A stretch of 61,654 bases of DNA, the filler included, from Sluysia triapertura (Eukaryota): assembly GCA_046118255.1 (NCBI GenBank). It is 5 parts of 5 records of this genome, joined end to end, with 100 filler letters (N's around TTAATTAATTAA, not from the genome) between each part and the next. Parts side by side here need not be neighbours in the genome. Positions count along the whole stretch, not along the records: positions 37,126 to 49,689 come from JBJNIA010098549.1; 4 more parts are not named here. The stretch is one strand, 5' to 3'. The notes beneath the pieces were generated by a model. The model was given only the letters and a program-made list of their open reading frames with translations, had not been told where the DNA came from and searched no databases. Below, piece after piece: positions 21,572-58,468 of this stretch (position 1 is the stretch's first letter; the number at the start of each line of letters is the position of its first letter). The position numbers were made by a program, and so were the translations under genes.

Positions 21572-22937
21572 GTCAAGCTTAGCAGTGCCTCCTCGTAATA
21601 CATGTAGTAGATTACAACTCTGTATGATCATTTTTTTGATTAATGTCACATTTCAAGTTGCAGTTTAAAACAATTTACCGAGAAAATTCTACATTTAACT
21701 TATTTGGATAAGGCCGTAATTATAAATATTACAATAGAAATTTGTCTTGGAACCTGGCACAATGTTGCGTCTTATTATATGGTACAACTTATTCAAATAC
21801 AATGAATATTCATAGTTAAAAATCAATGGACATGTCGTGCGCAAAACAGAAAAGAATTTCGTTACATTCTAACATCATATTGACTTCTGAAAAGACTAAG
21901 TATTATTAATCGAGATATTAGTCAAACATGAAGAATTACAAGTCTAGTACAACGACCTTTACTAATTTCACAAATAGTTTGGTACGATTTCAAATTGATC
22001 AATCTGTTACAATTTCAAATTGTTGTAGAATGTGTCAAACATTGTGCGTATGTTCTTATTTAGTTGTTTGTAGAGGAGATTTATTCCATAAGTTTGAAAA
22101 ATCAGTTTGTTACAGAATGTTTTATTTAATTCAATCATGTTAGGATACATGTCGTGGTCCATCAGATTTCAAAGAAATTGGAGTTTGCTATTTAGCTTGC
22201 TTGAGGCCGGTGTGGAATTTCCTGCACAAGTTACTGACAGTATGGCTCCTACTAATACGTCGGACAAAGAGGGTTTCACAGTACTAAACTGCTGCAGATT
22301 TCAAACAGTACTGAACTTCATTCAGTAATTTTGATATTTTAAAAGAACGTATGGTTTGTTCTCCGAGTACCACACATGATTCTGTTCCTGTCCAAGCTCT
22401 TATCTTGCGTTCTTTCGTACAATGTCAATCATTAATAAGTGCTATAAATCATTCTTCAGTTTTACCCGATTTGTTGCGACCTAACAACGAATTGCTCTAA
22501 ACGAGATTTGTCAAGAAAGTCAAAATACGATTAAAGTGAATAATAAGTTTATTTGTGCATTTGAAACCCTTAGGCAAAAGGTTATTTGTGAAATAATCTA
22601 TAATGTTTCTGACATTCTAGTAATAAACAATGAAATTTTTTGTTTTTTGTATTTTTCAATAATAGTAGTCCTTAAGCCCAGTTATAGTCGTATATTATGC
22701 AAACCCAATGATATAGTTCTGTCCTCAAGTCCTAAAACAATGAAACAATTTCCTCTATCAATAAAGTAAAGCTGGACCTCAAGTGATTAATGAGTACTCA
22801 TTGTCAGCGGATAATTTAGCACGGACATGTATATCATATTTTATGAGCAGAAGATGCATCTTATTTATGTAAATAATTGCAGATATTCAACAAGTCTAAA
22901 AAACATATCACGCAGAAGACGAATCAAGATGACCAAC

Positions 22938-24261
22938 CTTTATTATGTCCCCTCTCTGAACCAGTTCGATCGGAATCCTACGTTCTTCGTTTGTCGAGTC
23001 CATCAGAGTCGCTTCAACCGCCTTTAAAGAAAGTAACTTACTGAGTGCTTCTGATGTTTTTCCCTAGAAAAATTAGCAATAAATACGATGTGTGTATCTG
23101 GTTACCTTAGCAACATGTTCCAACCATCGTCCGAGACTCAAAAACGTCACTAACATTGGAGTAGTCTCGAAGAAAGTCTGTGGACTACCACCATTCACTG
23201 AATTTGGATTGGCTAGAGCTATAATCAATACGATACAAGAATAGAAGTAAGACACAGTGATGGCCATGGTGACAAGCACATCCATATTAGCAGTGCCACT
23301 GTACCGTACTGACTTGTACGCTTGGATGTAGAAATGGCGAGCACAATAAAATTGTACGGGACTGGCCAATAAGAATAAAAAGAGATTTTCATAGGATAGG
23401 CCTGGAGTAACGATAAATAAGTGAGTAGAAGTGGAATTGGAATCGTGGGAAGTCATCGGAGTTAAGAAGAACATGAAAATCATCATAACCAGCATGGTCG
23501 GAATTCCGAATATAAGAGAGATGATGAAATCCCTCCTCCATCTGCGAATAGAGAATTAAATTAGATAATAGATAATATAAACCTTTTTGTAACTGATTCA
23601 TATTGTTTTTCCGGTGATTGACTTGTGCCTGAAGGAGTTGCCATGACAGCTTGGAACCCCATTTTCTGAAAAAAATCAGAAACCGTAATATAATCATCTA
23701 ATTAACCTCTATTGCATCAATTATGTTTCTAGGACCAAGTTTACAAGGGCTGTACTTAAATGTACCTCGCTCTGTAGTCAAGGCAACTTTTACTGAAATA
23801 ATGCCATCTAATTTGGAGATGTTCGACTCGATAGTATTGACACAGCTCGAGCAAGTCATGCCATCTATTATCACTTCCAGACTCATCACATTCGGCTCTG
23901 CAATATCAAGTTGTTCGGCTTCGAATCCGAGATTGTCCACCTTGTCTATAATGTCGGACGGCATTACCAACAATGGATCGTAGTAGACTTCTGCAGAAGA
24001 ACCCAGCAGGTTCACTAAGACGGAATCGACTCCTGGAATGAAATTAAATAGAAGTTGAATAAAATATTGTATTCCAGTCAAATAGTGCTCAAGCAGTAAC
24101 CAACCAGTAAGTTTCTGCAACTGTTTCTCGATTGTGTTCACGCACGACGCACAACTCATACCCAGTATTTTTAAGTGGCACTTAGAAAGTGTTGCTATCT
24201 TCTGATCAGAAACTACTCTATTCTTGTTGCTGTCGAAACTAGTTTCAGAAGGCAGCGACAT
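22938..24261 (-). CDS. ATP7: Copper-transporting P1B-ATPase (ATP7-like), partial: two HMA domains, first four TM helices, start of actuator domain
   Basis: Exons 24261-24105, 24032-23707, 23665-23583, 23541-23106, 23063-22938 splice in frame via GT-AG introns of 72, 41, 41 and 42 bp. Motifs [68 protein letters not shown]. Downstream TGE, CPC and DKTGT exons not seen. Confidence 0.93.
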
Positions 24262-24578
24262 TCTGAATAATTGACAAATTAATGACTTCGCTTACTGACC
24301 CACATGTTCTGATTGGGCCGATTGCGGTCAGTGAAATGCATTGTGTTTTTATGAAATTATGAAATTGCAGTTCCACATCTATTAACTATGGAAGAATTAT
24401 ACTCATTTATTGGTGTTTTGGGAGGTTTCAGAATGCAGAATAAGAAAGAACACAAAGATATGCAACATATTGCACAAAATTAGACATTAGTAAACTTAAA
24501 TGATAAGACATTTTAAGAGATATCTATATTATCCCAATTCTTTCAAAAATATTTATATAAACATCAATTTGATATATA

Positions 24579-27151: not shown

Positions 27152-27906
27152 ATGAAAATTCAAAAGATATCATCTAAAACAAAGCGTTATTTTTCCCCAT
27201 CTACTGTTTTAAATCTTCGACGCAATTCTGCAATAGATGATATTGAAGCTTCATCTATATTCACAGTAAATGAGCTACCTGCTACCGTTTCTTCACATGC
27301 TCCTACAAATAACTCTAGATTTCAAACAATCATCCTATATCTCCTATTGTTGATCGATTTACAATAAGCACATTTATTAAAAACAATACAAGCTGCAATA
27401 ATAAAATCGAAGAATCGAAACAGTTGCGTCAATTAATTGATCGAGCTAATAGAAGTCCCTTAATGCGACTGCATCGTCATTCATTTGCTTATTTGGATTC
27501 AAGTGCACAACCGAATTTTTGCGATCATTACGATAGTCTGTCCTTAGAAGAGCTTAATTTCAGTAGCTTCAATAGTAGTGGTAATAATGCTGATGATTAT
27601 TGGTACTCGTCAAATATAAACCAATCAAATATAAACCGTCGTCGTCCAATTGATGATCAATTTTATATACACAAACCATCGGATCATCATAACTACTATA
27701 GCATAACTGCATTAAATGAACAATACGAAGAATTGACAGCTGCTAATGATATACCTGAATATTTAATTGTATCATCACTTCGCCCAGTTAATCACGAAGA
27801 CCCTATAAGTCCTTTCGAATCAGTTATTGTCACACCACCTCAAGCTACTTTTAACCACCAGTTACAACCAAACATTGCCAATGCTAGAAATTCTTCTGTT
27901 AAATAA
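27152..27906 (+). CDS. Probable 3'-terminal coding exons of an unidentified gene (Ser/Asn/Pro-rich, disordered-looking)
   Basis: GC-richer coding-like stretch preceded by AG acceptors near 27148-27150. A 53-bp GT-AG intron (27266-27318) would join the two ORF frames. Stop at 27906, AATAAA downstream. No recognisable domain. Confidence 0.55.
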
Positions 27907-36406: not shown

Positions 36407-37025
36407 CTGCAATAGAAAATGATATAATAAAATTTGAACAAAATGAAAATTTTATAATCATAAATTTATTCAAATCTATATGATAGTATATTATACAATA
36501 ACAACTGATTTTATTAAAGTTTTGATAGCCAGATTTGAATGTATATTATATTTGAATGATATTAAAGTTTTCAAAATATATTGACTTTTTTCGGACTTTT
36601 TCAGAATCTAGTTTTTTATTGATAAAAACACCCTCATGTTGTACATGTAATATTTTTGAAAGTAACAATTTGTTTCTTTATTTCATGTACTGAAGTTGTT
36701 AAAAAGTTGGCGTATATGATTTTCGATCCTTTATAATAATAATATAATATAATTTATATTAATTTATATTGCTCCCATATCTACTGCGTAAGTAATTACC
36801 ATCATATTTCTGAAACAGGAAGAACTTTGCCTTTTGCTTAAATATTTCATAATCTTCCAACAATTTGACATTCTGTGGTAACTAGTTGTATATTTTTGAG
36901 ACATAAACAGTATACAACCTATCACCTAGCTTGTTATCACTGTGAATCCTGTATAGATTATTATTATGTCTCAATGAAATATTCATCTTCATTTCCAATT
37001 TTCGTATTATTTCCAAAAGATATTC

Positions 37026-37125
37026 NNNNNNNNNNNNNNNNNNNNNNNNNNNNNNNNNNNNNNNNNNNNTTAATTAATTAANNNNNNNNNNNNNNNNNNN
37101 NNNNNNNNNNNNNNNNNNNNNNNNN
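37026..37125. other. Assembly gap with TTAATTAATTAA linker
   Basis: Same structure as 11043-11142. Confidence 0.95.
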
Positions 37126-37177
37126 CTAATTTTAACCTTATATTAAATACATAATTCGCGATAATACTATTAAATCG

Positions 37178-37835
37178 TAAAGAAACTGGACCTAGATTCA
37201 TTAAAAGTCCATTCAATCAAGTGGTTGGTGAAGATCAAAATGCAGATTTTGCAACTAAAATTGCTGCACTCATTGTAACATGGTTATTCCATGATGCAGT
37301 TCTTACACAAAAGCATAAAACATATGCAGAAATACAGTGGCAAAGATTACGCTTCGAGTATAAATCAGGCTAAAATGGATTATACTGTACGCGCTGAAAA
37401 CAGTTTCGATAAGAAAGAAATGTCTGCAAAATTAGCCGTAGAACCAGCATTCACAAACAATTTTCCGAATGCTCTTAATATGACTCCATTGCCATAAATG
37501 GGAAAGAGAGAAGAATCAGAAATTGAAATGTTTAAAGAAAAAGAAACCAGATCAAAATTCACTTTCCCACTTCTAAATCATTTCATTATTTTTTGTAATT
37601 GTGAAAACTTATGTATAATGTTGATGGTCATTCTTCGTCAGAAGTAGCATGGTTTAAAAATGGTAAAGAATTAATTAAAAGAAAATATGATCATAATTGT
37701 AATTAATATGTGGAATTGCTTCTTTGGAAATATTCAAAGCTTCAGTAGAAGATGATGGAACATACAGTTGGTGAAGATGCGACATGAATGAAATTGCAAG
37801 TTTAACCAAGTCATACATAAATGTTGCTCAATAAA
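37178..37835 (+). pseudogene. Decayed twitchin/projectin/titin-family segment: two post-kinase I-set Ig domains
   Basis: Across frameshifts: GPRFIKSPFNQVVGEDQNADF..IVTW..SIKHMQKYSGKDY..DYTVRAENSF, then KFTFPL..LCNVDGH..VAWFKNGKEL..SLEIFKASVEDDGTY. No introns visible; small deletions and stops; Ser-rich tail continues to ~38070. Confidence 0.75.
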
Positions 37836-38149
37836 AACCGTTGATAATCTTCCGAATTTTACAGTTATAACCGTTCTACTGACACAGGTGTTAATTCAAA
37901 AAGCTGGGAATGGATTAGTGAAAGTGAAGAAATACGTTCATCTGATTCATTGTTTAGTTCATCGACATCAAAAGTAACCTCATCATTTAATATGTCATCA
38001 TCATCGTCATCTTCGAGAAAAAATACCAATATCATTGAAGAATCCACCGTCTATATTAGCAGCAGTAGTGTAGTGGTCAACATTTATAATTTAAACTCAA
38101 TTAAAATATTAAATCTAACATCTAGAAATTAAAGTTCATTAAAATGCAA

Positions 38150-38967
38150 TTTTCCCAACAGTTATACTTTTTATTTCACAATTACACCATCACAAACATC
38201 ATACAACAACATTTAACAATCTCAACACCTCACTAACTTATATACACCACAAATCAACTTGTATCTCAACCATCTCTAACATTCAGCTCAAACAATTCAT
38301 AACATTCATCCACTAAATACTTCATCAAACAAATCAGAATCACAGTATAAGCTTTACAAATCACAAATATAATAGCATTCAAACAACGCTAACAACTACT
38401 TCAGAAACACAGGTTACCCACACCTAAATCCTTAATCAACCACACCAACTTAAAACCCATTTCACAAATACATATACATCGAAAACAAATACTCGTAACA
38501 TTATAATAAATACTAAAACTTATTTTGTAATCATCATTCAAAATTAAAATAACTTAAATTTTTTAACAAACATTTTAAACCATTCAACTTAATGCATAGA
38601 TCTTATTTTCAAATTATAAACCTTTTAATAAGTTTCAATAAACAATTTCAACATTTTTCATTTCATTTACAATTTTAACTATTGCAATATTCAAAGCAAA
38701 ACTAAGATAACTTGAAAGATTTCATTATCCAACTGTGAAGCAACAACGATAGTCAATACTTACCATACTTTATTACCGTTGTTCCTTCACAGTTTATCAT
38801 TCACTTCTTTTCCTTCTATTTCATTTTTATGTAAGAAACAACAACTAGATAAAGAAAAGATCATGTAAAAAGTTTTAGTAAAGATTTATGCGTTTCTTTT
38901 TAAACAATAACAACAATAACTTCATCATTTCTACTATTACTAGTATTGTTATTGTTGTTATTACTAA

Positions 38968-39013
<46 letters not shown>

Positions 39014-39434
39014 GTCATTAGTGTTATTATTATTACTTTTCTTATCATTAGTACAGTTGTCATCATTATTATTAGTACAACGATTACTAACTCCACCTAA
39101 AGATAAAATACATAAAAATTAAATAAATTAAATTAACATTGCTACAAAATCGATGATAAACCTGGTTGCTGCCATCACCAGTGTTGACAGTCTATGTCAC
39201 TATTACATTAGGCTGTCATCCCTGATGATGGTCGGCCACCAGTTGTTGTTTTTCCAATTTGTTCCATTGCTGAATATCACCCAATCAGACTACAATACAC
39301 CATATACATTAAATAATCAATTCCTGACGTTCTGATTGGGTGATTTAAAAATAGAAAGTTAATCAAAAATCACAATTTGGTAATTCTGTTTGAACGATTA
39401 ATAACTAAAAAATTCTAGTTTTATAAACTTTAAA
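38150..39434 (+). promoter_or_regulatory. Upstream cassette A (C/A-skewed tract, shared motif, (ATT)n, TGACAG/CCAAT region with inverted repeat)
   Basis: Perfect 14-bp inverted repeat ATCACCCAATCAGA 39276-39289 / 39331-39344; TGACAG/CTGTCA near 39185 and 39213; motifs shared with cassettes B and C. Confidence 0.55.
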
Positions 39435-41072
39435 ATGTCCAAAAAAATTATGTCATTAGAGATCAAATCCGTTAAAAATAAAGATCGACTTCTAATACAT
39501 CTAATAAATAGACTAAAAGATGTAACTCCATGGCAAGATAAATTTGATTCTTTTCTTAAAGATGAAACAAAAAGGAATTCCATGTGTGAACAAAATTTAG
39601 AACCTTATTATCTACCTACAGAATATTCGGTGATACTATCGACTGTGTCGACACAGAGGCAAAAAGACTCAAGTGATCACAAAGCCAAATTCTGGGTTCG
39701 CAAAATTTACGAAAACCAATTAGATTATAAAGAAGTCATTATGATTTTGAAATGTAGCGTTAGAGGATTTACATTTTTGATTGTTAAGATAAATCCATTT
39801 AAAGAAATTGAGAATTTAACAAATCAAGCGATTTCGGAATTCGTAATGGGTAACAAGTTATCTATTATTATTTGGTATCAAAAAGAAGCATCTATAAGTA
39901 AGTCGATTATTAGAAGATTCTTGAAACGATGTAAATGTGTACATTCACCTTATTGTCAGCCAACATCTAAACGTTCTCATTTCAAATTGTTGTCTCGTAC
40001 AGTTAGTGATAACTACCTTTCCTTAGAAAATATAACGAGAAAAGTAATATTACTAAATGTGGAAAATACTAAAGCTAAAGAACAATATTTCATGTGGACA
40101 ATTCCGTTCAACACTTTGTCAAAGATGTTTACATTTGATTTAAATATGAATATTAAATTTTACCAATTATCTGATAATCAAAGGAATCGATTATTAGTCT
40201 ACACCGGAAACAGAATGTTGAAATATGTCATCAACAGATCTTCTTCTCTTATTTCTATCAATCAAGAATTTGAAAGATTCAAGGATAACGCTGTTTCTAC
40301 CACAGCATATGTTTCTGAGGATAGTCGTAAGATATTTAGTTTTGATTTACTTAATAACTATATTAGTTATCAGTTTAGTTGGTTATATAATTATTTTTTA
40401 GATAAGATAAATACTGTTTGGATCCCTGAACACTGGACAGTCGGATGGAGAATCGACAATGAAGTTGTGAAAAAAAATAAAATTTTATTAAGTGTAATAA
40501 ATTTTCATTCTTTTTATTTACTTAAATTTAGTCTTAACGTTGTACTTTTGATAAGTAAAAATGATGTAAAAACTACGATTAAAATCATAAACGATGAACG
40601 TGCTAAAGTTACTAAGCTTAGAAATCAAATAGACATGAACCATTGTATTGATAATTATATCCATTATTATGGTTTGAATAAAATTTTAACATTAACTTTA
40701 AATCATGTCTCAAGTCAAAAAAATAATGAGTCAAGCTTAAAAACTTTAAAACTCATACCTGACAGCTATGAAGACAATTCTTTATGTATGTATTTACGTT
40801 TTAAATTACTAACATATACTTACTCTTTTACTGAAATTAAGACGACGCCCTCAACCTTAATACACGCCTTAAACACAGAATTACGCTATAATCCTTTATC
40901 TTTAAAAACTAAATATCTATCGACTTATATTCTACAAACTAATAATATATTAGGTTATAACATGTTAACATTCTTAAATTTGTGTCAGAACATATACCAC
41001 CAAAAATGGTGCCTAGAGTTCTTCATAAAAGAATCATTTTTACAACATTACCCAAAAGCCCTAAATAGGTAA
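39435..41072 (+). CDS. Uninterrupted 545-aa ORF, unknown function
   Basis: 1638 bp open in very AT-rich DNA, AAAATG start, globular-looking composition, CKCVHSPYC cluster. AG|GTAAGT at 41069 overlaps the stop, so the gene may splice onward. No family recognised. Confidence 0.8.
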   Translation: MSKKIMSLEIKSVKNKDRLLIHLINRLKDVTPWQDKFDSFLKDETKRNSMCEQNLEPYYLPTEYSVILSTVSTQRQKDSSDHKAKFWVRKIYENQLDYKEVIMILKCSVRGFTFLIVKINPFKEIENLTNQAISEFVMGNKLSIIIWYQKEASISKSIIRRFLKRCKCVHSPYCQPTSKRSHFKLLSRTVSDNYLSLENITRKVILLNVENTKAKEQYFMWTIPFNTLSKMFTFDLNMNIKFYQLSDNQRNRLLVYTGNRMLKYVINRSSSLISINQEFERFKDNAVSTTAYVSEDSRKIFSFDLLNNYISYQFSWLYNYFLDKINTVWIPEHWTVGWRIDNEVVKKNKILLSVINFHSFYLLKFSLNVVLLISKNDVKTTIKIINDERAKVTKLRNQIDMNHCIDNYIHYYGLNKILTLTLNHVSSQKNNESSLKTLKLIPDSYEDNSLCMYLRFKLLTYTYSFTEIKTTPSTLIHALNTELRYNPLSLKTKYLSTYILQTNNILGYNMLTFLNLCQNIYHQKWCLEFFIKESFLQHYPKALNR

Positions 41073-42999
41073 GTCTAGTACGTTGGTGGACTCACCGTAA
41101 AACATATTTTGCTTTATTCTGTTCTCATCTTAAGAAAACATCAGCAAAAGCCTTAAACGTATTTTTCAATCCTATTTAAATAATTTCGAAGGTCATAAGC
41201 TTATGCTTAAAATAACAAGCATCCTAAGTGCAGTTTTAACAGTAAAATTTAGTAATATGTTAATACAATTAAAAATATTAAAAATAGTAATTATAACAAT
41301 ATGGTCAAACAAATATTATAGAATCAAAATAAATTTTCCTAAAGAAATTTGTCATAATTTTACAGAACAAAAATTATTGTGTATATTGTTATAAAAATTA
41401 GCAAAAATAATTGATAATAAAATAAGATACAAAAATTATTTTAGTAATGTCTTGCCTTTGTTAATGCTTTTGGTAATTCTTCAAAAATACTACAATAATA
41501 ATTACTGATACCATCGATCTATTAAGAGTACTTATATATACATATAGATACAAAAAATACATATGTTTTAAAAATGTTTAAAATTATTAATTTAATTTAA
41601 CTTATCAATAATTTAATACAATATTTACAATTTAATAAATAAAATTATAAATCTTCTAAATGTAATTGTTTTATTTACTTGTGACTTGTTTTATAATTTA
41701 TTTAGGTTACTTTTTTATTATAATTTTCATTGTTTAGTTTCATTTTTAAAAGACTAAATATAGAAATCAGGCAAAAGTGTAATTTACAAATGATCAAGAG
41801 TTTTATTTATATTCTTACAATCTAAGTCTAATAAAATTAGACATCAAAACAGGTGTATATAAACAAATCAATAAGAGTAAACATGAAGTAAAAATAAAAT
41901 CCGTTTATTGCATTATATAATGAATAAAAATTCACTTAGATATAGTTAAAATTATTCAGACTAAAACTAATTCTTTTATTATATTTTAAATTTTAAACAC
42001 TTAGAACAGATAAATATAATGTCCTTTTTATTATATAAAACAATGACAGTTTTTTATTAAATAAATCTCAAATAAATTTGACAAATAAATGTCAAACATA
42101 ATCAATCATAAAATTATGTTTTATTATAACCGACATTTTGAAAACAAAAATCAAGGAAATATACATGTGCAGGAAATTATTTCCCAAAATGTTTATTGCA
42201 TAAAGCAATAAAAAAACAATTAAAATATTTCTATACGAATGTTCTTTTATGGAAAGTTTTATTATAAATTTTATGCATTATTATAAACGGTTGCGTTTAT
42301 ATTTAGAATTGCATTTAAACATTTACCATTATAATTAATATTACTGTTATTATTATATTCATTATTATTTATGTTATTATTATTTTATAATAATAATAAT
42401 TATTATTATTATTATTTTGGAGTTGAAAGTTTTGAAGTTATTATCTTTACCTCAATGAATGTTATATTAAAGTTTAGATACATTGATCTATAAAAGTTGG
42501 TCAACTTATTTATAACAAACTTTTAACACAAATTCAAAATTGAACGTTTATTAACTAAAACAATTGATTTAAAATTTATACTAATAAAACATCAAAGTTA
42601 TTTTTGGTACTACAGTTTCGTATGTCACCAAATATTCGGACTGTGGACTACTAAAGAATAAACAAAAGATATTAAAAACGTATTCATAGTGTAACAAAAG
42701 TTTAATTATTTTAAGTTCTAATTCATCAATTTGATGATCGTTATCATTTTCATATTTTGAATGAATTTGAGGATCACGATATTTTGATAAATTGTTAGAA
42801 TAAGTGAGGCCAATTGTACTGTGTTTTTAAATATTACATTATTAAAATTATTCGAAATCGTGAAATCAGAACTTTCTTGATTTAAATTAATTAAAAGGAT
42901 TACTTTTAATATTAATACATTGGGAAATAAGGTGTTAAGACATTTAATTTTATTTGAAATTACCAAATCTAAATTACATTTTTCATATATTCCAAATTA

Positions 43000-44182
43000 T
43001 GCCATTTTGTTCGGTAACCTGTTTCTAAGTCTAAATAAAAATATAAAAACAAGATAAAATTTAAGATATAAAATTTAAAAATCATTACGTTGCTGCTATC
43101 AACATCATACATCTCTTGAATCGACAGTCTCCATAATTTGAGTAGCAATAGTTGGCAACAGATCCTTTAATCTACTGCGATGTGACGATTGGATCATATA
43201 GTTGAAATTCAGTTCTTGTAGTTGATCGATTGTATGTGAATATTTACATTTAGTTCCAAAATTTGAACATTTACCTTCTTGGTTAGATTCATAAGGTTAG
43301 AGAGCCACTTTAAAACATCATCGAAGTTAAATGGATTGCAATTTATTTATACTAATAGAAAAGCTATTTACTGATGGCTCTAGAATCAAACTATTGATTT
43401 GAGAATTCTCAAAATTCATTTTATGATTATCTTCATCATCACTGCTTGACTCGGATGTTAGATTCAGCATAATCTTTTCTTGCATTAAATTTACTTCTGC
43501 ATTCATAGACGAAGTGTGAAAAGGTTGGATCGTTTCTATATTGAAACCGCACCTTATTACATTTTGTTTAGCAGCAGCAAAAACTTTCTTATATAGTTTA
43601 GAGTAATCATGAACTATATTAGTAACTATTGGTGGGAACTTTAGTTTTTTTATTTCGACCACTCATCTTAATACGACTCATTGCATCACTTCTTATTAGA
43701 AAACTCCATATCTTTTGAGTCATCTCAAGTAATTCTGTACAAGTTCGTATCATGAATTCATAAAAGGCATCTTCTTTTAAGTTATTCTTTAACTTCCATA
43801 TTCCAGTAGAATTGTTAATGCTTAATCCAGCTTTCTTGCAGACACTGTTGATGAGAATTTTCTGAGCACAAACTTCGCGTCTACTTACGTTGAACTTATT
43901 TTCGATGTTGTCCAGCCGAGTGATCATCTGCTCTAGATTCTAAATTAGTATTATTATTGATTTGATTTCTCAAATTATAATGAGCTTCTGTTTTAGTTTC
44001 AGAATTTTCTTCATTTTTTGACCTCTATTAAAATCATTACTTTCTACATTATGCAGAGCACTGAACGCATCATGGACATCTAATACGATCATTCTGAGTC
44101 CACATTTACGATGTTTAGCTAAATCATTCACGTTTGTAGGTTCATTCATTAAATTCATAAAAATATTCACATCCACTAACAA
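43000..44182 (-). pseudogene. Frameshifted gene: coiled coil, BEN/DUF4806-like domain, acidic linker, possible CCCH-like remnants
   Basis: Three successive ORFs, two of the frame changes falling at A-runs: LEQMITRLDNIENKF; IWSFLIRSDAMSRIKMSGRNKK/LKFPPIVTNIVHDY; SSSDDED; downstream GKCSNFGTKCKYSH. Possible 58-bp intron at 43031-43088. Domain call by eye. Confidence 0.5.
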
Positions 44183-45450
44183 TTTTAATTTTTTTAACTT
44201 TTGAATTCAATTAGTATTTAATAATATTCAACAAAAATTGAGCAATAAAAATGCATTTAACTATTCTAGCCTAAAACATTTTACGTACTGACTATTATAT
44301 AGTTGTTATTACATGCAAGCAACACCAATTAAACATAAGCTAGCAAACTTTTAGTGTGCTATATGCGAAGAAACTGCTGCTTGGACAGTCTATCAAGGTA
44401 TAACATAATGACTGAATTTGATTGACTGTCCAATCTAAAAAGCAAATTTAATATGTTATGTCAATTAGTGTTCTTGTCACCATTAAGCCTACAAGCTGAC
44501 AAAATGATGATTAAAAATGGTAACAAATAACTATAATTTAAATCGATACATAGTCACTATGAGTTGTAACTGTTAAATGTTAATTATAAAAATAACGATA
44601 ATAATATGAGAAATAATGATAACAATAATAAAATGATAAAATGATAATGTTTTTAATATAGGAATAAAACTAATTAATATTAATAATAATATAAATTGCC
44701 AAAATCTAAGGAAAAATACATAAAATCTTTATCACTTTTGCTAATACATGATCTTTTCCATAAACACATTATCAAAATATTTCTACATAACAATCTTTAG
44801 TTAAAATATAATCAGTTGAAATTATGTTGAAGTTGTTCTTTTATCTTTGAAAGGTTTAAAAAGGTATGTTCTGATCATATTCTTTAAAAGAGATTTTATT
44901 TAGTGCCTACCGTGATGTGTATGTAAAAAGAATTGATGGAAAGTTGTTCAGAGATAATCAGATATAACTAAAGATGTTTAATAATGTCATTTTGATTGTA
45001 ATATCTACACTTAATTTAAAGTGTTGGTTGATGTTTGATGATGTTAAATGTAAAGGTTATTTTGATATAATAATTTTTCACTTCAAGATGTATAAAAATG
45101 AGAATGATTCTAGTGGGTATGAAGAGATAAAATGTGAAAAAGTGAATGGAAGATGAATGGAAGATGAATGGAAGATGAATGGAAGATGAATGGAAGGTGA
45201 ATGGAAAGTTATGAAATATGAATTTAATATTATATAATTTTGATGTTGTAGAGTATGAAGTGGAAATGTTTTAAGAAGGTTAGGATAAAGTTTTAGTGAA
45301 AGTCAAAGAAATAAAATGTAGAAAGTTTTTAATGTAAGAATAGTTAAAATGTTATGGAGTGTAAATTTGATATTATGCAATTTTATGTTTAGAAGTATTG
45401 AGAATTATAAAATGTTTTGAATATTGATTTTATTGTGTGTTACAGAAATA
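44183..45450 (-). promoter_or_regulatory. Upstream cassette B
   Basis: Inverted repeat TTGGACAGTCTATCAA 44381-44396 / TTGATTGACTGTCCAA 44418-44433 (15/16); several TGACA/TGTCA; AAT-rich 44580-44700; TACATGATCTTTTC 44745-44758; G/T/A-skewed tract beyond. Confidence 0.5.
45143..45207. repeat. Tandem 11-bp repeat (TGAATGGAAGA), ~5-6 copies
   Basis: Directly visible. Confidence 0.92.
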
Positions 45451-45459
45451 AAATTTCAG

Positions 45460-46179
45460 ATTAATTGGCAACCACATCAATAAACTGTTTAATCTTGAAA
45501 TATTTTGATCTTGTTCTGCTTTGTTACGATGCATTTGAGAGACGTTATGATAGTAACAGCTTGACGTGCCATATCATATGCAAATTCCGAAAACATTTAC
45601 TTGTGAGGGGCATTGCTCCGTAAGTTTTGAATATTCATCTAATGACCGACCGTAGCCATTTAATTTCTTCTGTCTGGATATCTATCACTTGAATCGATCC
45701 TTCTACGAGTACTCGTTTCTTAGTTGATTTCACCTTATTCATAGCAATTCCTACTTCGAAATTGTTTTGAAAGCATTTCATTTGATTTCACCGATAGTAA
45801 TCACGAAAAATCTATTTTTACACTCCGAGAATTTTTTAACTAAATGTTTAAAACATAGTTTATCACGTTTATATGTTTCTTGGTCATTAATGAGGGTAAT
45901 GTCATATATGTTTTTGATTGCAATAGTTACAAGATTTACCGGTAATTGTTGAGTATTTTTAATTGTTTGACTAAAACTTCTATGGAATCGGTTCAATATT
46001 ATCATTGAACAAAATTTACTCTTTTGATATTTATATTCGAGAGACATAATTTGTGGATCTTTACTAAATATTGGATGGTTGCTACATTCGTTTAAAAATA
46101 CATTAATTTCTAATTCAATTTGGTTCTTATTTGACATTACATGTTCCTTTGAAGACAGCATCAAACTATTATTCATCAA
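45460..46179 (-). pseudogene. Decayed orphan gene (133-aa ORF plus frameshifted continuation)
   Basis: ORF 46179-45778 continues in shifted frames (MKCFQNNFEVGIAMNKVKSTKKRVLVEGSIQVIDIQTEEIKWLRSVIR*...). No family recognised. Confidence 0.5.
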
Positions 46180-47065
46180 TTTATTAAAATCTTATCATTT
46201 GATAAAAATTCGATGTTGTTATTAAAATTCTGTCTAATTTTATTTTTGTTGCTATTTTTATTATTCTGATTGTTTAGCCTCACTATGATTGGCTGACCAA
46301 TAGGGGTATATGTATTGTCAGTTGTTAATGCTTGTATTACGAAGATGTCCTATTGGTCAGTTAATAACTCACAAATCATGATGATACCAATTAAGTGACT
46401 AACAGTTTCACATTGTGTGAGCTGTAATTTTGTTCTCTGATTATGAGGCTGTCAGTAGTTGACAGTTAATACAGTAGTATTGACTTTATTTAATTTGCAA
46501 CTGTCAATTGCTGACAGGTGATATGAAAATAAAATAATTATAATAATTATTATTATTAACATTATTATATATAAATAATAAAGTATGTAACAAATAATAC
46601 TAAATAATAAAATAAAATAACAAAATTCAGTAAAAAATAAACGCATAAACCTTATAAATCTCTTTAATTCTTTATGTTTTAAGGTCTATTTTCTTTGAAA
46701 TAAAATTATATGAATAAATTTTAATGTGCGTGAATGGTTTCGAATGTATATATATCTGGTTTTGGTATTGTAAAGTTGGAATTTGAAAATGTTTTGAAAT
46801 GAGAATAGTTTTAATGGATCTAACAAAAATAAGGTATAGAAAAAGTTTCAATGCGTTCAGAAAAGGTAATAGTACACTGTTAATGAATGTAATTACGATT
46901 GTAATGTTATGAAATTGTGAGTTAAAATGTTAAAAAAATTAAAGTTTTAACGGATCAAAAGGTAAAATGTAAGATGTTAGGAGATACAATATTTTGTGTG
47001 AAATGATAATTTTAATTTTGAATGAGAGGTTGAACACCACAGTTTTCAAGAAAAGTTTGACAACC
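46180..47065 (-). promoter_or_regulatory. Upstream cassette C
   Basis: Perfect 12-bp inverted repeat CTGACCAATAGG 46293-46304 / 46349-46360; four TGACAG/CTGTCA sites in 46448-46520; AAT-rich tract; AAACGCATAAA 46639-46649; G/T-skewed tract beyond. Confidence 0.55.
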
Positions 47066-47675
47066 TTTTAAAATTTTATAAAAGAAAATAGAAATTTTTC
47101 TTTTGATTTATAAATAAATAAAATGTAACAATAAAAATAGTTTTTATTAAATTTTAAGTGCATACATTTAATGTATCTATAAATATAATACAAATAAATA
47201 CAAAAAGGAAAGACTGAGTCGAGAAAAAGATGATTAATTTGTTCTTGAGAGACCAATTTTCAATATCAAAAATGAATTTAAAATTTTTATTGTTTAATTT
47301 TTTAAAATATTTTATATTAATAATAAATGAACATAAATTTAATAGAGGAACTTTCACTTTATAATCATTAATATTAAGATAGTTGATATTAAAATAAGAA
47401 CCATGTCAGCATTTTTTAAAGTCTGCGTTTCGAAACTGATTATAAATTAATCAAATAAATTAAATTTGTTTTTTAATTATTAAATTAAAATTAAAATTAA
47501 AATCGGCAATATAATATTAAATTATATAATATTTGTTTCAATAAAAATATTACAGTTATAAATAAACACTTTTCCTTGTTATTATTAACGAAAATCTCAT
47601 TAAAAATTAAAAATATATAGTAAATAAAATTGTATATTAAATTCGCAAAATATATAAGCTATTACATCTAAATTT

Positions 47676-47792
47676 CAATAATAATAATTATTATTATTAT
47701 TATTATTATTATTGTAATATTAATATTAATTATAATAATTATAATTATAATAATATTAATATTAATTATAATAATTATAATAATATTAATAT
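47676..47792. repeat. AT-only low-complexity (AAT/ATT) repeat
   Basis: Directly visible. Confidence 0.85.
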
Positions 47793-49689
47793 TCATATTG
47801 ATACTTTTCAGTATTTAAAATAAATACATTTTTCAAAGTATATTATTTAAAAGTACAAAAGCTTAAATATATTATATTTTTCTTAGATATTATATATTAT
47901 ATATTATATTTTTCAAATTTTTTGTGCATTACTTTGTAATTTAATAAATATAAACGAATTAAATTAAATTCACTCAATAATAAAAGATGATTAAGCAAAT
48001 TAATATTATAATCTTCATTCAGAATTTGATTCATTATTTAAATTTGAAAATAAACAAATTTAAGACCGTAAGTAAGTAAAAACAATTGATTAATTATTTC
48101 ATATAAATTTTAATAAACAATGCTGAAATCAAAGAAAACCATTAGCAATCTAGGTTGTCTTTGTGGGAATCATTTTAATTGTTCTTGTAATAAGAAACAC
48201 GTCTATTTAACCGCATAAAATGTCTCCATTAAAATTTGTAACATAATGCTTCTTTTCAATAATACAGTTTTTCTTGCTCTTAACATAATTGGATATCTAT
48301 ATGACTTTTTACATAATTATTTGTCGTCAGTGATTGTTTTATTGATATATTTTTATGTAATGTATATAAAATATATTTTAGTTGAAAGTGAAAAAAGGTT
48401 TCACAAATTTCTATAATAAATTTCTAATTTTAAATATCCATTATACAGTGAGTTATGATTGGTTTTCAGCAACTCTGGATGAGTTTAATTTTTGTGAAAC
48501 CAATTACTTATAATAAAATTAGTGACTGTCTATTCAAATATTCCAAACTGAGAAAGATATATTTAAAATAAGTTGTGTTACATTTTCAATAACAAAGAGG
48601 TAAATATTTCATTTTAATAAAAAATACGTTTTAAAGTAATAGGCGTAAATATTTTTAGAAATAAAATCGAAAACGTGTAATATATGAATTAAAAATAAAA
48701 TAATTCCAACTAGAAACAAATATATTTCTAATTTCAATCCAAATTCCACAACCTGTTCAGAATCAGATTAATAGTATTTTTCAATCTATCTGTCAAAATA
48801 TGCATCATTAATTAATAGTTGTAAGAGTATTGCTGTATCTGTTGAAAAGAATTTCAAAGAATAAAAACCACGCATATGATGGGGTTTTATTTATTTATGA
48901 ATTTGTACCTGTAAGCATTCTTTAATGTTTTGGAATTTCAGGATCTGCTGTTCTGTTTATTCGTGAAATAAACAAATTTAATGAATTCTTTATTTTACAA
49001 TAACAAGAGATTGATTATAATAAGTAAAATGAAAAGGAACAATAAAATAATTCTTTCTTTTATATTTTAATTATTAATTAAAATATCAGTAATATTACAA
49101 ATCACCGGAAAAATGTTAGTCTATTTTAAGTGTGATTTTGGGCATAGAAAACCAAGGAAGCATTAAGTAATTTTAAACTAATTGTGATGTTTTAATGAAA
49201 TTTTCTTAAATGAATATAGATTTCTCTAGTGAATTCAAAACATTATAATTGTTAATACAATCACGAGCAAACACCACCACAAATTATCACGTCTTGCATA
49301 AATAAAATGTTAAATCTTACATAAAACACAAACTCAATTCTGTAATATCATACATACTTTAGAACATTGTAATTTCAATTTAAAACTCGTTACTTAGTAT
49401 GGTTGGTATTATTGTTATTAAAATAAAATACTTGTATAACTATTCTCTACATGTGTTTTACATGTAGGTTTTATATATATTATGTCTATGATGTTTTACC
49501 TATTGTTTATCTATCTTTTATCGTTTTATTATTGTTTAATACTATTCTACTTCCGTGTTTTTGTAACATTTAATACTGTGAAGTCTAATCTAACTATGAA
49601 TAATATGAATACCTGAATGACTATTGAATTAATATGAATTTGTAAAATTATTTTTGTAACTTTATTGATTTTTGTATTATAAACAACTT

Positions 49690-53747: not shown

Positions 53748-54893
53748 TAATCGATCTTGACTCTGACTATATAGCCAATTATCTCTATGAACATATCACT
53801 ATTATTTTTCATATTATATACTTATTTATTTATATCCGCCTTCCTGTTTAGTGGATTTTTCCATGCCTTACTGGCGCTTGATTTTGATCCGTAATATTTT
53901 CTGGATGCTAATTAAGTGTGATGGATTTCTGACATCTTTCACATTTGTTTATTAGTTTATGGCTTCTGTTTTGTTTCTGATTACTTTTTTGGTTTTTATA
54001 AAGGTGCTTTTTTAAGTTGTAGGTTTTACTTTTGGCAAATTATGTGCCGAATGATTTTATTTTTAAATCATTTCAACAATATTTATAGTATCCATAATTT
54101 TTTTAAAATATTTTCATTTTACAATTGTTTTCCATATTAATAATTAATTATGAATAATAATTATTAACTATTGTGAATAAATACTCAAAAGCAGCTAAAA
54201 TACTAAAACTTTCTTTAAATAATTTACAATCTTCCAGTTTCATAGCATCTGCTTTGTAAATTTTGAAACAGAAACAATATATAACCTGTCACTTATATCA
54301 CTGTGTGCTTGGTATAGAATTATATTTTAAAGTTATTTATTTGGGTTCTCGTTTTTATTATATTTAGGAAATATTAAGGTCTTCATAACGTAAGTATATT
54401 CATAGATTATCCTGATTTTGCATTCTTTTGCTTTTAGAGGTATTCATTGTAATTCTTTCAGATATAGTGTTTCTTACGATTATTCTCGTCAATTGATTCA
54501 GTACTAATTATGACTTTCTCACTTTCTTATGGTAATGAATATAATAAACTATTATTACTATTATAATTTATTAGTTTTTCTCTATTAATAAATTACCTCA
54601 TATAATGTATTTTCTTTAATTGGTATTCATATTTTTTGATAATGAATTTAATTATTTTCAATAGAGAAATTTTAATGAATTTTAATTTAATTTTCCCATT
54701 TATTACACTTTGTTTTGAAATTTTTAAAATAAAATATTCAATTCAATTTTTTAGTAGGAAATGCAACCATAAATATAATTATTGTAGAATAGTATTGATT
54801 TTTTAAACTCGGTTAAATTAAAATTTATATTTAATACAAACTAAATCTTTAGGTACATATTTTTATCAAAAGCAAATGTAATTTTTATTTTAG

Positions 54894-55114
54894 ATACGAT
54901 ATAGAGACAAATTCGTGGAATCGGAGTGAATCCATGCATTACCGAAGATCAGGTGCAGGTTGTGCAGTAATGCATGAAACAATTTATGTTTGTGGTGGTT
55001 ATGGTGGTGCATCTAGACAAGGTCCTCAGCATTTAGATAGTGTTGAATGTTACAACACACTTACTGAACAATGGAGTTTCATTAATAGTATGCAAGCACC
55101 TAGGTGCTACATTG
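54894..55114 (+). CDS. KLHL12: Kelch-like protein 12-like, kelch-repeat exon
   Basis: ttttag acceptor; YDIETNSW...MHYRRSGAGCAVMHETIYVCGGYGG...HLDSVECYN...W...MQAPRCYIG. The order RSGAG, PRCY(I/V)G, AGYDGN, RCDxG matches KLHL12. Phase-1 donor at 55115. Confidence 0.88.
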
Positions 55115-57701
55115 GTTTGATTATTTTATTTGCTTTATTTGCCGATTTTTTTATAAAATATTTTATTCAACAAAAGAGTAATTCTACCTTCATGGTATTT
55201 TGACATACGTGATGTAATTTCGATAAGTTATCTATCAATAAAAGAAAATATGAAGTGAGTCCATCTACGATACGGCTAATCTATAGGGTTTAGAAAAATA
55301 TAAATCGTGGAAAGATAATAGAAGTCAAGTATATCTAAAAATTACTCTGAGTCTACATTGATCAGCTTAGCCATTAATTAACGAATTTTGAGTTAATGAC
55401 TTTTTGATTCTAGTTTGCCTTTAGGCGAGATTAATAATAATAATGCTCCACGAATTCAATTTCCGCGTTTTTAAATAAAACCTATAATAAAAGGTAATTT
55501 TAGAAAATTCATATGAAATATCGAATAATATTGCAATAGTAAAGATTCTATATAATTTAGTAAATTTTATTTTTTGATCCAAGTTAAAAGGATCAAATGC
55601 AAAAATCAATTTTGAATAACTCAATTAAAGATAAACTATATCGTAACATAAATAACTTATGCAACAATTTTAATACTAATCTATAAAAATTTGCAATATA
55701 ATTAAAACTGGATAATACAATAGATTTTAAATAATCAATAATATGATTTTATTCTAGTAATAATGATATTATCAATTTTATCAAGATTATTCGAAAATAA
55801 TAATCGTTGCATAATAGTTTGATTTAAAATTTAGAGTAAAGTATTTACGAAAAATGATTTTAAGTCTATTTATCAACACAATTTTAAATTAGCAAAAAGA
55901 CTTAAGAGAATAAAAACTAACGATTAAACAATTACAAAAAGTTCTGTTAGTAGAAAATCACGATTTCCAATCCAGAGAATATGATAACAGAGTGGTGGTA
56001 AGTTAATCGGATGGATACTTTGAGTTTGTAAAAGAAAATTAATAAATGATTGAAATCAACTTTTTGTTTTGTGATTCTAGTTGTGTAGCCATTAATATAT
56101 CAAATTTACATTTGACTTTAAAAGGTCTAGTTATCATATGATTAATGTTTAAATGATTATAGTACTTTTATAGTACTTTTATATTTTTAAGGTATTTTCT
56201 ATCTAATTCAATTTTATAAAGTACTTTTAAAATGTAAATAAATTTGTGATAATATCAAAATAAATTACTACTAATAATAATATTTACATAGTTATTAATA
56301 CAAAATATTATATATTCAAGATAATTAAAATATATATAATTTTACATATTTACATAATTATCTACATAATATTCACATAATTGTTAATAATATAATACAT
56401 AATTACAATAACAAATAATAAGTAATAAGCAACGTTTCCTTACGCATACTCATTAGCTTATGCAAGTAGCAAAAGTATAATTGTATTGTAATTTTATTAA
56501 TTAAATATCTCGCAAATAATCGATCATATAGAATTAAATTTTTCAGGTATTAAAGCAAATGTTAATGTCATTTTATTTTTACTTTCATAAATTTTTTTAA
56601 GTTAAAAGAAACTGTAAAATTATAAAAATCTATAAAAAAAAATATCGCATCCAATTATATATGGATATTTCAATAATTTATAAAAAGCATTTTTTTCTAA
56701 TCGCAAAAGTTTAATATAACTCGAAAGAAAATATTGTTCTATTCAAGGAAATAAATCGTCAAGCGGGTTCCGAACACTCTCTTAGAGATTGTTGTAGTTA
56801 TGGGGGGTCTGTCTATATGTAATTATTTCCAAAATTTTAGATGCGTTTGAAAAATAACAAAACGCAACGAAATTGATACACCACCTAAACGGTTAGTTAT
56901 CTCAATGGAAGTATATACAAGGCAATTGCTGGTCAATGTAAATGAAAATATGAACGAATTGAATAATATCACTGATCTTGATGTAAAAATAGGTATTTTC
57001 AGTTTCTATCCAAGTTATTTTTATTTATCTGTTAAGGAAACTAAGAAAGTGTCACTCTATGAATATATAGAAAATATTTACGAATATTTTCAAATTACCC
57101 ACTGAATGTTGCCTACTTGAAACATCTTTCTATTGGAAGAAAGTACGCGCTGTCTTAAGGAAATATGAAATATATGTATGTGAGTGTGCATGTAGTTATT
57201 CTTATTGCTGTTTCATTAAATATTAATATTTAAACTATTAATTAAATTACATAAATGTGTTTATGGTTTGACATTTCCTTATCGATCTATTTATCACGTG
57301 TTAGAAATAAGCATGCTTTTTAAGAATTACCAAAATAATTATTTAACAATATATCAATGGTGCATGGTAATATTTTATTAAGAGGAAGAATTTTCAAAAT
57401 GGCATATTCGTTTCTGCATTACAAAAGTGTCAACATTTTCTGCTCATTTAATACATCATAAGTCTTTGATGCCAAGTGTCACTTTTGTATTTAGAAATTC
57501 ATAAGTTGTATAAAATATAATAATTATGCATTCTGAATAATATTCATTCCTAATATTTATCAGAAGTTGAACTCAATCTTTAGCTTAGTTTAATCTATAG
57601 AGTAATACAATTGTTTATATTAATTGGTTTTGTTTTAGCAAAATGTTTTATACTATGATGCAAAACTATTTAAAAGTAAATAATAGGTAAATAAATATTA
57701 G

Positions 57702-58468
57702 GAGCATGTCAAATGGGAGGAATGATATGGGTAGCAGCTGGTTATGATGGTAATCGATTACTGAACACAGTAGAGGCGTATAACAAGTATGGTTTATTTC
57801 AATTAAAAACAAACAAATCACTAAATCTTGAAATAACAGAAGCCAATAGGAATGATAATAGTTCAGCTAGTGGTTGTGTAACTGTTACAGCAAACAATTG
57901 GACAACTTTCAAAAATTGTCCCATGCGTAATGAACGATGTGATACTGGAATGTGTATAGTCCATCTTTTTCAATTGGCTGAACCACCATTACGTTCTCTA
58001 CAATCTTCACAATATAGTGCATCAATTACTAGTCCATTACCTATATCTGCCCCAAGTACTCGCCTTGCAACTGCATTTGCAACTGACTCACCAACGACTG
58101 AAATTCCATCCCGTTCATATGCACATTTGCATTACCATTTTCATCCTCAACATTCACTGTTTCCGCAAACATCAGCACCTCCATTTAACAGTCAGTCCGG
58201 TCAGCCAGTACCTCCAGTTCATTCCGTTACTACTATGAATACTAATAGTACTCCTTCAGCTAATGCAACAGCAGCTTCTTTAAATGTACGAGATTTTTCA
58301 TTTATTCACCATTCATTGTTTGATTCTTCAAATCCGGGAAGGAACACTCCTCTTTCTATATCTCGTAGCATAGATACCAACAATACATCATCGAGTACAA
58401 TTTCGTATCCACTTTCTTTTGATGAATCCGGAGCTAACGAAGAAGTAGAAGGTCGAGGTGGGCCTCAG
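57702..58468 (+). CDS. KLHL12: KLHL12-like, last kelch repeat plus long Ser/Pro/Thr-rich extension
   Basis: Joins 55114 in frame (G+GA). ACQMGGMIWVAAGYDGNRLLNTVEAYN...W...MRNERCDTGMCIV. Donor CAG|gtatta at 58469. Confidence 0.88.

What the first reader, a model, noticed from the sequence alone, without database searches (positions are those of the whole stretch)
39435..41072. Intact 545-aa single-block orphan ORF in an intron-rich, AT-rich genome
Seen: the longest ORF in the window, with no stops where random frames close quickly, a CKCVHSPYC cluster, and no motif I recognise. Its neighbours are decayed while it is intact. A GTAAGT donor overlaps the stop. Inference: recent insertion or purifying selection; it could be element or virus cargo, or a lineage-specific gene.
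Basis: partly seen in the sequence, partly recalled or inferred. Interest (0 to 1): 0.7.

Follow-up and report, generated by a model that had tools for sequence, protein, structure and literature searches.

The report
Orphan gene inside a multicopy transposon
A long protein-coding gene with no known relatives sits inside a repeated, probably jumping piece of DNA in a little-studied animal, next to two similar pieces that carry other unknown genes; what the protein does is still open.

Summary
The 545-codon ORF (39435-41072, +) is real. It is the longest in the window; shuffles reach at most 164 codons. No sequence, profile or fold search found a relative. It is not a single-copy host gene. In the one run that holds it, hundreds of diverged contigs lie on it, at 21-91 times the depth of the single-copy flank. 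A conserved right end stops near 41110 in ATATTTT, where unique DNA begins. The ORF follows a G-poor tract, an ATT microsatellite, a long palindrome and paired CCAAT boxes. Two neighbouring cassettes on the minus strand have the same layout but carry unrelated, broken orphan ORFs. Best reading: a cargo gene with its own promoter in a non-autonomous DNA transposon, most like Helitron2/Helentron, moved by a transposase encoded elsewhere. The mobile origin is well supported. The class is inferred, because the 5' end and its inverted repeat were not found. Recent copying can explain why this copy is intact; 6 of 8 listed differences are nonsynonymous. Part of the orphan status reflects an isolated host, whose ATP7 is at most 55% identical to listed hits. 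Protein function and splicing remain untested.

The parts
39435..41072 (+). Intact intronless ORF, 545 aa (P0001): basic (pI 9.5), no clear transmembrane segment, CxCxHx3C at residues 166-174; cassette A cargo
   Evidence: multicopy in run X1
38001..38800 (+). G-poor, C/A-rich tract upstream of cassette A (G 3-5% in three 200-nt windows from 38101); the most C-skewed region of the window after the leading satellite. Holds a 10-bp inverted repeat at 38731-38794
   Evidence: not covered by the read lay, so its copy number is unknown
38854..38902 (+). Short motif just before the microsatellite, with counterparts at the same place in cassettes B (46673-46633) and C (44758-44719)
   Evidence: B and C are the top non-self hits, C tied with an unrelated site; with GC-weighted scoring ranked them lower, so the link is modest
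38935..39050 (+). (ATT)n microsatellite; pure ATT tracts also occur elsewhere in the window
39136..39271 (+). Long imperfect palindrome with TGACAG/CTGTCA arms; bin depth about 1,770 times single-copy; loop differs in other copies
   Evidence: z -4.2, 0 of 200 shuffles; nhmmer E 2e-5
39276..39344 (+). 14-bp perfect inverted repeat carrying convergent CCAAT boxes (span 59 nt), about 95 nt before the ATG; putative promoter (inferred)
   Evidence: (z -3.8)
41068..41110 (+). Conserved right-end module: donor-like GGTAAGTC overlapping the stop, a 13-nt loop, GACTCACC, then CATATTTT; bin depth about 800 times single-copy
   Evidence: (32 contigs with loose letters before 41068; unique contig from 41110); folding not better than shuffles (z -0.3)
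41110..42318 (.). Single-copy flank (one contig, 0 differences, depth 13.2)
   Evidence: table 8
43108..45500 (-). Sister cassette C: G-poor tract on its own strand (44801-45500), ATT-type tract (44581-44691), hairpin (44381-44433), CCAA[T/G]..ATTGG pair (44325-44384), and a broken ORF (44149-43108) with a weak CCCH-finger match near its end; multicopy
   Evidence: zf-CCCH_UNK E 0.0076, below cut-off; z -5.1
45481..47200 (-). Sister cassette B: G-poor tract (46601-47200), ATT tract (46533-46574), TGACAG hairpin (46449-46517), CCAAT inverted pair (46293-46360), broken ORF from 46177
   Evidence: (z -4.7 and -3.5); outside the read lay, copy number not tested
55245..55291 (-). Second, diverged copy of the right-end module, also ending in CATATTTT, between two Kelch-gene exons
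   Evidence: best non-self hit of 1758 and of 946 windows under two scorings

Best explanation
The ORF is a cargo (accessory) gene with its own promoter inside a non-autonomous DNA transposon, most like the Helitron2/Helentron (HINE) group. SHOWN: the ORF and its flanking modules are multicopy and diverged; the palindrome and the right end are shared by far more copies than the ORF; the repeat ends near 41110 in ATATTTT; two sister cassettes have the same layout with unrelated ORFs. INFERRED: a Rep/helicase encoded elsewhere in the genome recognises the conserved ends and copies the cassette by rolling-circle transposition, and the interior is exchangeable. The TGACA and CCAAT boxes drive transcription, probably in the germ line or early embryo. 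The protein is kept open in the replicating lineage because it helps the element spread, most likely as a soluble nucleic-acid-binding accessory factor (basic, small alpha/beta domain, one CxCxHx3C cluster), and individual copies decay after insertion. This copy is intact because it is young. Odds: mobile-element-borne about 0.9; Helitron2-like class about 0.55; nucleic-acid-binding accessory role about 0.35.
For:: 2,400 records laid on 39100-45130 (249 at 99%+, 558 at 95-99, 882 at 90-95, 711 under 90). Seven of 7 bins inside the ORF are at 21-91 times the depth of the single-copy contig; the palindrome bin is about 1,770 times and the right-end bin about 800 times (ratios). One 255-nt contig in the ORF has depth 120 and 1 difference; two others are 87% and 93% alike. 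32 contigs join at 41068 with a different interior. The unique contig starts at 41110. ATATTTT lies at 41104-41110, 42 nt after the stem starts; chance for ATATTTT in an 11-nt slot is 1.5%. Fusarium Helitron2 subgroups FoHeli1/2 end in ATATTTT with a repeat/hairpin 38-51 bp upstream (PMC5148889, passages). A second right-end copy lies at 55245-55291. 4 of 5 perfect inverted-repeat clusters of the window, 3 of 4 convergent CCAAT pairs and 3 of 4 GACAG hairpins fall in cassettes A, B and C. Precedent: non-autonomous Helitron2 elements carrying a cargo ORF with 3' overabundance (PMC3627910, section 8); HINEs with a microsatellite, a 3' palindrome and unrelated interiors (PMC7492417, passages). 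P0001 has no HUH, Walker A, YxDD, GIY-YIG or Fanzor motif.
Against: The 5' terminus was not located, and no inverted partner of the right end (11 nt, up to 1 mismatch) exists in 37126-39440. The right-end stem folds no better than shuffles (z -0.3; rank 19 of 166 ATATTTT sites). The long palindrome seems internal, not terminal, unlike the described Helitron2 5' hairpins. No Rep/helicase partner was seen, and no genome is held. Summed depth is not a copy number. X1 is one run of unrecorded kind and may be the source sample. Alignments between the A, B and C upstream or promoter regions beat the shuffles clearly in only 1 of 6 pairs (0 of 100 for B-C upstream; 3, 24, 66, 48 and 97 of 100 for the rest), so their kinship rests on layout. 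Of two joints shown inside the ORF, one keeps the frame (net -39) and one does not (net -41). Nothing shows what the protein does.
Confidence: 0.55

Rival explanations
1. The cassette is an autonomous element of an undescribed kind: P0001 is its own mobilising protein and the more numerous ORF-less copies are its derivatives.
For: The ORF fills the element up to about 40 nt from the right end, and the ends outnumber the ORF roughly 10- to 80-fold, as for a transposase and its MITEs. No family match in Pfam, PHROGs, NCBIfam or 1.84 billion representatives.
Against: None of the tested motifs of known transposases or nucleases is present. Cassettes B and C have the same layout but unrelated proteins (150 of 300 shuffles score as well for B frame 0), which suits exchangeable cargo.
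Confidence: 0.13
2. An ORF1-only retroposon (HAL1- or HeT-A-like): internal promoter, one RNA-binding protein, and a conserved 3' end recognised by the reverse transcriptase of a LINE.
For: One ORF followed directly by a conserved 3' end; strong strand bias; a CCCH-like finger in cassette C; a weak KH-like alpha/beta match for residues 85-200 (Z 5.5, rmsd 4.9, 70 aligned). HAL1 precedent is mentioned in PMC3627910 (passage). Decayed LINE 3' ends lie in the window (family label recalled).
Against: No poly(A) or tandem tail at 41110. Depth does not fall from 3' to 5' across the ORF, and the upstream palindrome is deeper than the ORF.
Confidence: 0.1
3. A host multigene family of a lineage-specific protein, amplified by duplication, with transposon ends lying beside it by chance.
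For: The host has no close annotated relative (ATP7 exon at most 55% identical among 120 listed of 539 hits), so its own fast genes would look orphan. The ATP7 upstream region shares the CCAAT context, so this promoter type is also a host one.
Against: The stop codon lies inside the high-copy right-end module, and unique DNA starts about 40 nt later. Sister cassettes are pseudogenes. The differences shown look neutral.
Confidence: 0.1
4. Integrated segments of a multipartite DNA virus or episome, one gene per segment, sharing a stem-loop origin.
For: One ORF per cassette, shared stem-loops, strand asymmetry. The loop of A's palindrome holds a NANTATTAC nonamer at 39198, the CRESS origin motif (recalled).
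Against: NANTATTAC occurs 44 times in the window and is not in the B or C hairpin loops. Well-supported copies diverge in that loop (table 7). No viral relative by sequence or fold; the one IMG/VR pattern hit is an unrelated phage-like contig.
Confidence: 0.07

Closest known systems
Helitron2 / Helentron non-autonomous elements (FoHeli1/2 of Fusarium; HINE/DINE-1; Cg_HINE of oyster)
   Same: Right end in ATATTTT with a stem-like module about 40 nt upstream; T-rich junction; a microsatellite and palindromes in the left part; conserved ends around variable interiors; ends more abundant than the interior.
   Different: No subterminal inverted repeat pair found; the long palindrome lies about 1 kb inside, after a G-poor tract; carries an intact 545-aa gene with its own promoter-like module, whereas the HINEs in the passages read lack coding capacity.
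CRe-1/2/3 Fanzor1-carrying non-autonomous Helitron2 elements (PMC3627910)
   Same: A non-autonomous element with a single cargo protein and 3' overabundance.
   Different: P0001 lacks the Fanzor/TnpB motif (no TS-TS-x-x-C4 finger, no CxxC, no RD) and is intronless.
Canonical Helitron1
   Same: TC at 39150 after A, and CTAG at 41075-41078 before T, are present.
   Different: The repeat runs about 30 nt past CTAG and, by the loose-end letters, also left of 39150, so these are not the ends; no 16-20 nt palindrome 11 nt before CTAG.
HAL1 (ORF1-only L1 derivative)
   Same: A non-autonomous family that keeps one ORF open (passage in PMC3627910).
   Different: No tail, no 5'-truncation gradient, no ORF1 domain match.

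Membership tests
Helitron2/Helentron (HINE) | T-rich 3' terminus (ATATTTT in FoHeli1/2) at the repeat boundary | tested here: met
   ATATTTT at 41104-41110, unique contig from 41110, same ending in the copy at 55245-55291; chance 1.5% per 11-nt slot (PMC5148889 passages)
Helitron2/Helentron (HINE) | 3' palindrome/stem-loop 8-35 nt from the 3' end | tested here: inconclusive
   An 8-bp stem with one mismatch is visible (41068-41096), but it folds no better than shuffles (z -0.3; rank 19 of 166)
Helitron2/Helentron (HINE) | Asymmetric/subterminal inverted repeats (8-15 bp) pairing the 5' end with the 3' subterminus | tested here: inconclusive
   None at 11 nt with up to 1 mismatch in 37126-39440; the 5' end is not located and an assembly gap lies at 37026-37125
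Helitron2/Helentron (HINE) | Microsatellite in the left module | tested here: met
   ATT tracts before the palindrome in 3 of 3 cassettes; ATT tracts are common in this window, so the weight is low
Helitron2/Helentron (HINE) | Insertion at TT/T-rich sites, as a rule without target-site duplication | tested here: inconclusive
   The right junction is TTTT; no direct repeat of 8 nt or more between 41101-41129 and 37901-39160; no empty site seen
Helitron2/Helentron (HINE) | Autonomous Rep/helicase partner with the same ends | not testable with these tools
   No genome held; P0001 itself has no HUH or Walker A motif
Canonical Helitron1 | Ends 5'-TC and CTRR-3' with a 16-20 nt palindrome about 11 nt before the 3' end | tested here: not met
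   CTAG at 41075-41078 is inside the repeat, which continues to about 41110
Fanzor/TnpB | D-x(125,275)-[TS]-[TS]-x-x-C4 finger-x(5,50)-RD | tested here: not met
   no Pfam hit
Minimal nucleotidyltransferase (Pol-beta superfamily) domain | Profile match with the hG[GS]...DxD...D catalytic residues | tested here: not met
   30-sequence profile: P0001 no better than 300 shuffles; hhalign 37 of 60 shuffles as good
Minimal nucleotidyltransferase or type II KH fold | Structural match of residues 85-200 | tested here: inconclusive
   Model pLDDT 39; Foldseek best E 0.26, ranks 1-7 from MNT-type entries; VIA best Z 5.5 to eS7, MNT/ANT 3.7-4.7
CRESS DNA virus segment | Conserved stem-loop nonamer shared by segments, plus a Rep gene | tested here: not met
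   Nonamer only in A's loop and common in the window; loop varies among copies; no Rep in the window
ORF1-only retroposon (HAL1-like) | Poly(A) or tandem 3' tail and 5' truncation gradient | tested here: not met

The most novel reading that the evidence does not exclude
This genome holds an undescribed family of modular selfish cassettes. A common cis chassis (G-poor strand, microsatellite, long palindrome, paired CCAAT promoter, conserved right end) carries one of several unrelated orphan protein genes. The cassettes act like the segments of a multipartite element, and P0001 is either a new kind of mobilising enzyme or a new element-encoded drive or anti-silencing factor. The splice donor over its stop lets it fuse to host exons at new insertion sites.
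Probability: 0.17. Interest if true: 0.78.

Novelty: new variant of a known kind. Interest (0 to 1): 0.47.

Why it matters
If right, the finding turns an apparent orphan host gene into a transposon passenger, and gene counts and orphan-gene claims for this lineage would need a repeat filter. It also yields a new protein family that comes with dozens of natural diverged copies. That is enough for an alignment-based fold and a dN/dS test, so the question of what accessory genes do for non-autonomous rolling-circle elements becomes testable here. Three cassettes with one layout and three unrelated genes within 9 kb suggest a route by which new genes with ready promoters spread in an animal genome. 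Five literature searches gave cargo precedents (Fanzor1) but no description of this layout; that library lacks most subscription papers and Repbase.

Tried and rejected
No relatives of P0001 were found in: Pfam (1 hit, E 0.073), PHROGs (E 0.35), NCBIfam, the word-index search (0 of 7,256 candidates), PDB sequences, the ESM Atlas whole and residues 190-545, viral and metagenome contigs and phage records. The single hit among 1.84 billion representatives (P0002, E 3.6e-9) is a summed score over about 40 bacterial Ig-like repeats, best pairwise score 30 bits; rejected. Single-sequence AlphaFold models were unusable (pLDDT 33 and 39), and the viral fold searches gave noise (TM-scores mostly at or below 0.2). 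The nucleotidyltransferase lead failed a profile test; an R-x6-H stretch at residue 396 was noted but not tested as HEPN. An apparent IMSLE similarity between P0001 and the B protein is chance-level. No other P0001-like frame exists in the window. Rfam gave only sub-threshold matches and no hammerhead in 37126-49689. The palindrome pattern found 0 metagenome loci and 1 unrelated viral locus. One stop-free piece of the C ORF found no homologue (0 of 53 candidates). No RNA holder was listed, which says nothing about expression. No joint at the 41069 donor appears among the 15 of 32 joints shown, but the run looks like DNA, so this does not test splicing. Five look-ups of earlier findings returned nothing. 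No genome is held. The read lay covered only 39100-45130, so the left part of A and all of B have no depth data.

Full report
Observation. The frame 39435-41072 (+) gives 545 residues without a stop. It is the longest of 19 frames of 100 aa or more; the next is 271 aa. In 200 local shuffles the longest frame was 164 aa, and the other five frames over the ORF hold 34-71 stops. The CKCVHSPYC cluster (residues 166-174) and the AG|GTAAGT donor over the stop are as described. The neighbours are decayed: I-set fragments upstream and two broken ORFs downstream.

Host. The window holds ATP7, Kelch and GPCR exons, so the host is an animal. The ATP7 exon is at most 55% identical to the 120 listed of 539 hits, led by lophotrochozoans. 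No close annotated relative is in the collection, which explains part of the orphan status. No genome is held.

Protein. Sequence and profile searches found no relative. The single hit among 1.84 billion representatives is a summed-repeat artefact. The protein is basic (pI 9.5) with no clear transmembrane segment (highest 19-residue hydropathy 1.79). It lacks HUH, Walker A, YxDD, GIY-YIG, CxxC and Fanzor motifs. Single-sequence models were poor. Residues 85-200 matched small alpha/beta folds weakly, MNT-type entries by Foldseek (best E 0.26) and KH-like eS7 by VIA (Z 5.5). A 30-sequence MNT profile scored P0001 no better than shuffles, so no fold is assigned.

Copy number. One public run holds the stretch. 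Its kind is not on record; I read it as DNA because all 30 of 30 bins are covered and one contig spans 1,209 nt of non-coding flank with no difference at depth 13.2. On 39100-45130, 2,400 records were laid, 1,593 of them under 95% alike. The seven bins inside the ORF stand at 21-91 times the single-copy depth, the palindrome bin near 1,770 times and the right-end bin near 800 times. Summed depth is not a copy number, but single contigs say the same: one of 255 nt at depth 120 with 1 difference, and others 87% and 93% alike. Thirty-two contigs share the sequence from 41068 rightwards with another interior, and unique DNA starts at 41110. The run may be the source sample, so it is not independent support.

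Why intact. Of 537 differences 40 were shown, 8 in the ORF: 6 nonsynonymous, 2 synonymous, none to a stop. Random change would be 19% synonymous. A copy 0.5-1% from its parent stays open with probability 0.1-0.3 under my indel assumption, but under 0.01 at 5%. So youth can explain this copy, while a 545-codon frame in a family spread over more than 10% divergence implies selection in the replicating lineage (inference). Of 53 indels 12 were shown; in the ORF there is only a compensating pair. Of two joints in the ORF one keeps the frame and one does not.

Anatomy. Upstream of the ATG lie a G-poor tract (38001-38800), a short motif, an ATT tract, a 135-nt imperfect palindrome (z -4.2) and a 14-bp inverted repeat with convergent CCAAT boxes (z -3.8). 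Two cassettes on the minus strand repeat this order: C (45500-43108) and B (47200-45481). The three upstream tracts are the most strand-skewed in the window after the leading satellite. 4 of 5 perfect inverted-repeat clusters, 3 of 4 convergent CCAAT pairs and 3 of 4 GACAG hairpins fall in these cassettes. Their sequences barely align (1 of 6 upstream or promoter pairs beat all shuffles) and their proteins are unrelated. C is multicopy, including the part of its G-poor tract that was laid, and has a weak CCCH-finger match. Six of 19 TGACAG sites of the window lie in the A and B hairpins. TALE plus NF-Y composite promoters are known in vertebrates (bioRxiv 10.64898/2026.02.16.706105, abstract and outline only); a promoter role here is inferred.

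Right end. The stop lies in a module that starts at 41068 and ends in CATATTTT at 41110. A diverged second copy at 55245-55291 ends the same way. Fusarium Helitron2 subgroups end in ATATTTT with a repeat and hairpin 38-51 bp upstream (PMC5148889, passages); here the distance is 42 nt and the chance of ATATTTT in an 11-nt slot is 1.5%. Against this, the stem folds no better than shuffles, and no inverted partner was found upstream. The left terminus is unknown; loose-end letters at 39152-39155 resemble the A-rich stretch just upstream, so the family probably extends further left (read by eye).

Mechanism. Most likely a Rep/helicase elsewhere in the genome copies these cassettes by their conserved ends, and the interior carries an exchangeable gene with its own promoter. 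The protein most likely serves the element as a soluble nucleic-acid-binding accessory factor. The multicopy state, the boundary and the shared layout are shown; the class, the promoter, the partner and the function are inferred. Rivals are a new autonomous element (0.13), an ORF1-only retroposon (0.10), a host gene family (0.10) and a segmented endogenous virus (0.07).

Comparison and novelty. It works like the cargo-carrying non-autonomous Helitron2 elements of PMC3627910 (passages and section 8) and like HINEs (PMC4067079 and PMC7492417, passages). It is not filed as a member, since the defining inverted repeats are unresolved. Canonical Helitron, Fanzor, MNT and CRESS tests were not met. 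PMC6431247 (passages) notes that full-length gene capture by Helitrons is rare. I did not open the supplements of these papers; their terminus alignments may bear on membership. Five searches showed no description of this cassette layout. Verdict: a real feature, a new variant of a known kind, interest 0.47.

Noticed in passing
window 37155-38129 (+): Decayed, intronless I-set (titin-like, label recalled) fragments, Pfam E 0.013-0.069, then a Ser-rich open frame, abutting the G-poor tract of cassette A; could be a captured host fragment.
   Followed up: partly
window 14746-15054 (+) and 36732-37023 (-): Two copies, 77% alike, of a decayed repeat; the first follows a frame reading HVTPYFKELHWL, like the C-terminus of an L2/CR1 LINE ORF2 (recalled).
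   Followed up: partly
window 17465-17776 (+): Open frame resembling the C-terminal part of a pogo/Tigger transposase (recalled; no Pfam support).
   Followed up: no
window about 22700-24290 (-): ATP7 copper ATPase exons with short introns and much higher GC (about 41%, GC3 up to 0.46) than the window; best listed hits are molluscs, a nemertean and a brachiopod at 53-55%, so the host is an isolated animal lineage. Its upstream 24300-24317 shares the CCAAT context of cassette A.
   Followed up: partly
window 54853-58510 (+): Kelch-repeat gene (KLHL12-like, recalled) with a long low-complexity C-terminal extension; a second right-end copy lies between its exons.
   Followed up: partly
window 797-1252 and about 7780-8040 (+): Rhodopsin-family GPCR exon (Pfam E 1.8e-9) and a likely later exon about 6.5 kb away.
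   Followed up: no
window 16237-16477 and 21320-21579: An 87% identical dispersed repeat of about 250 nt, not identified; the second copy follows another C-rich tract (20901-21600).
   Followed up: no
window 41089-41097 (-): The right arm of the end module reads as a perfect splice donor (CG|GTGAGT) on the minus strand, facing the plus-strand donor over the stop.
   Followed up: partly
window 44095-44113 and 12331-12347: Two further TGGACTCA sites with similar upstream letters to the right-end module but without the ATATTTT ending; remnants or chance.
   Followed up: partly
window 11043, 24822, 37026, 49690: Four gaps carry an artificial linker (44 N, TTAATTAATTAA, 44 N); a fifth gap at 28372 is plain N.
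   Followed up: no
window 1-545 and 45143-45206: A 20-bp AT-rich satellite (27.5 copies) opens the window; an 11-bp minisatellite lies in the G-poor tract of cassette C.
   Followed up: no
window 27319-27906 (+): A 195-aa Ser/Asn-rich open frame without Pfam match, probably a last exon of a host gene.
   Followed up: no
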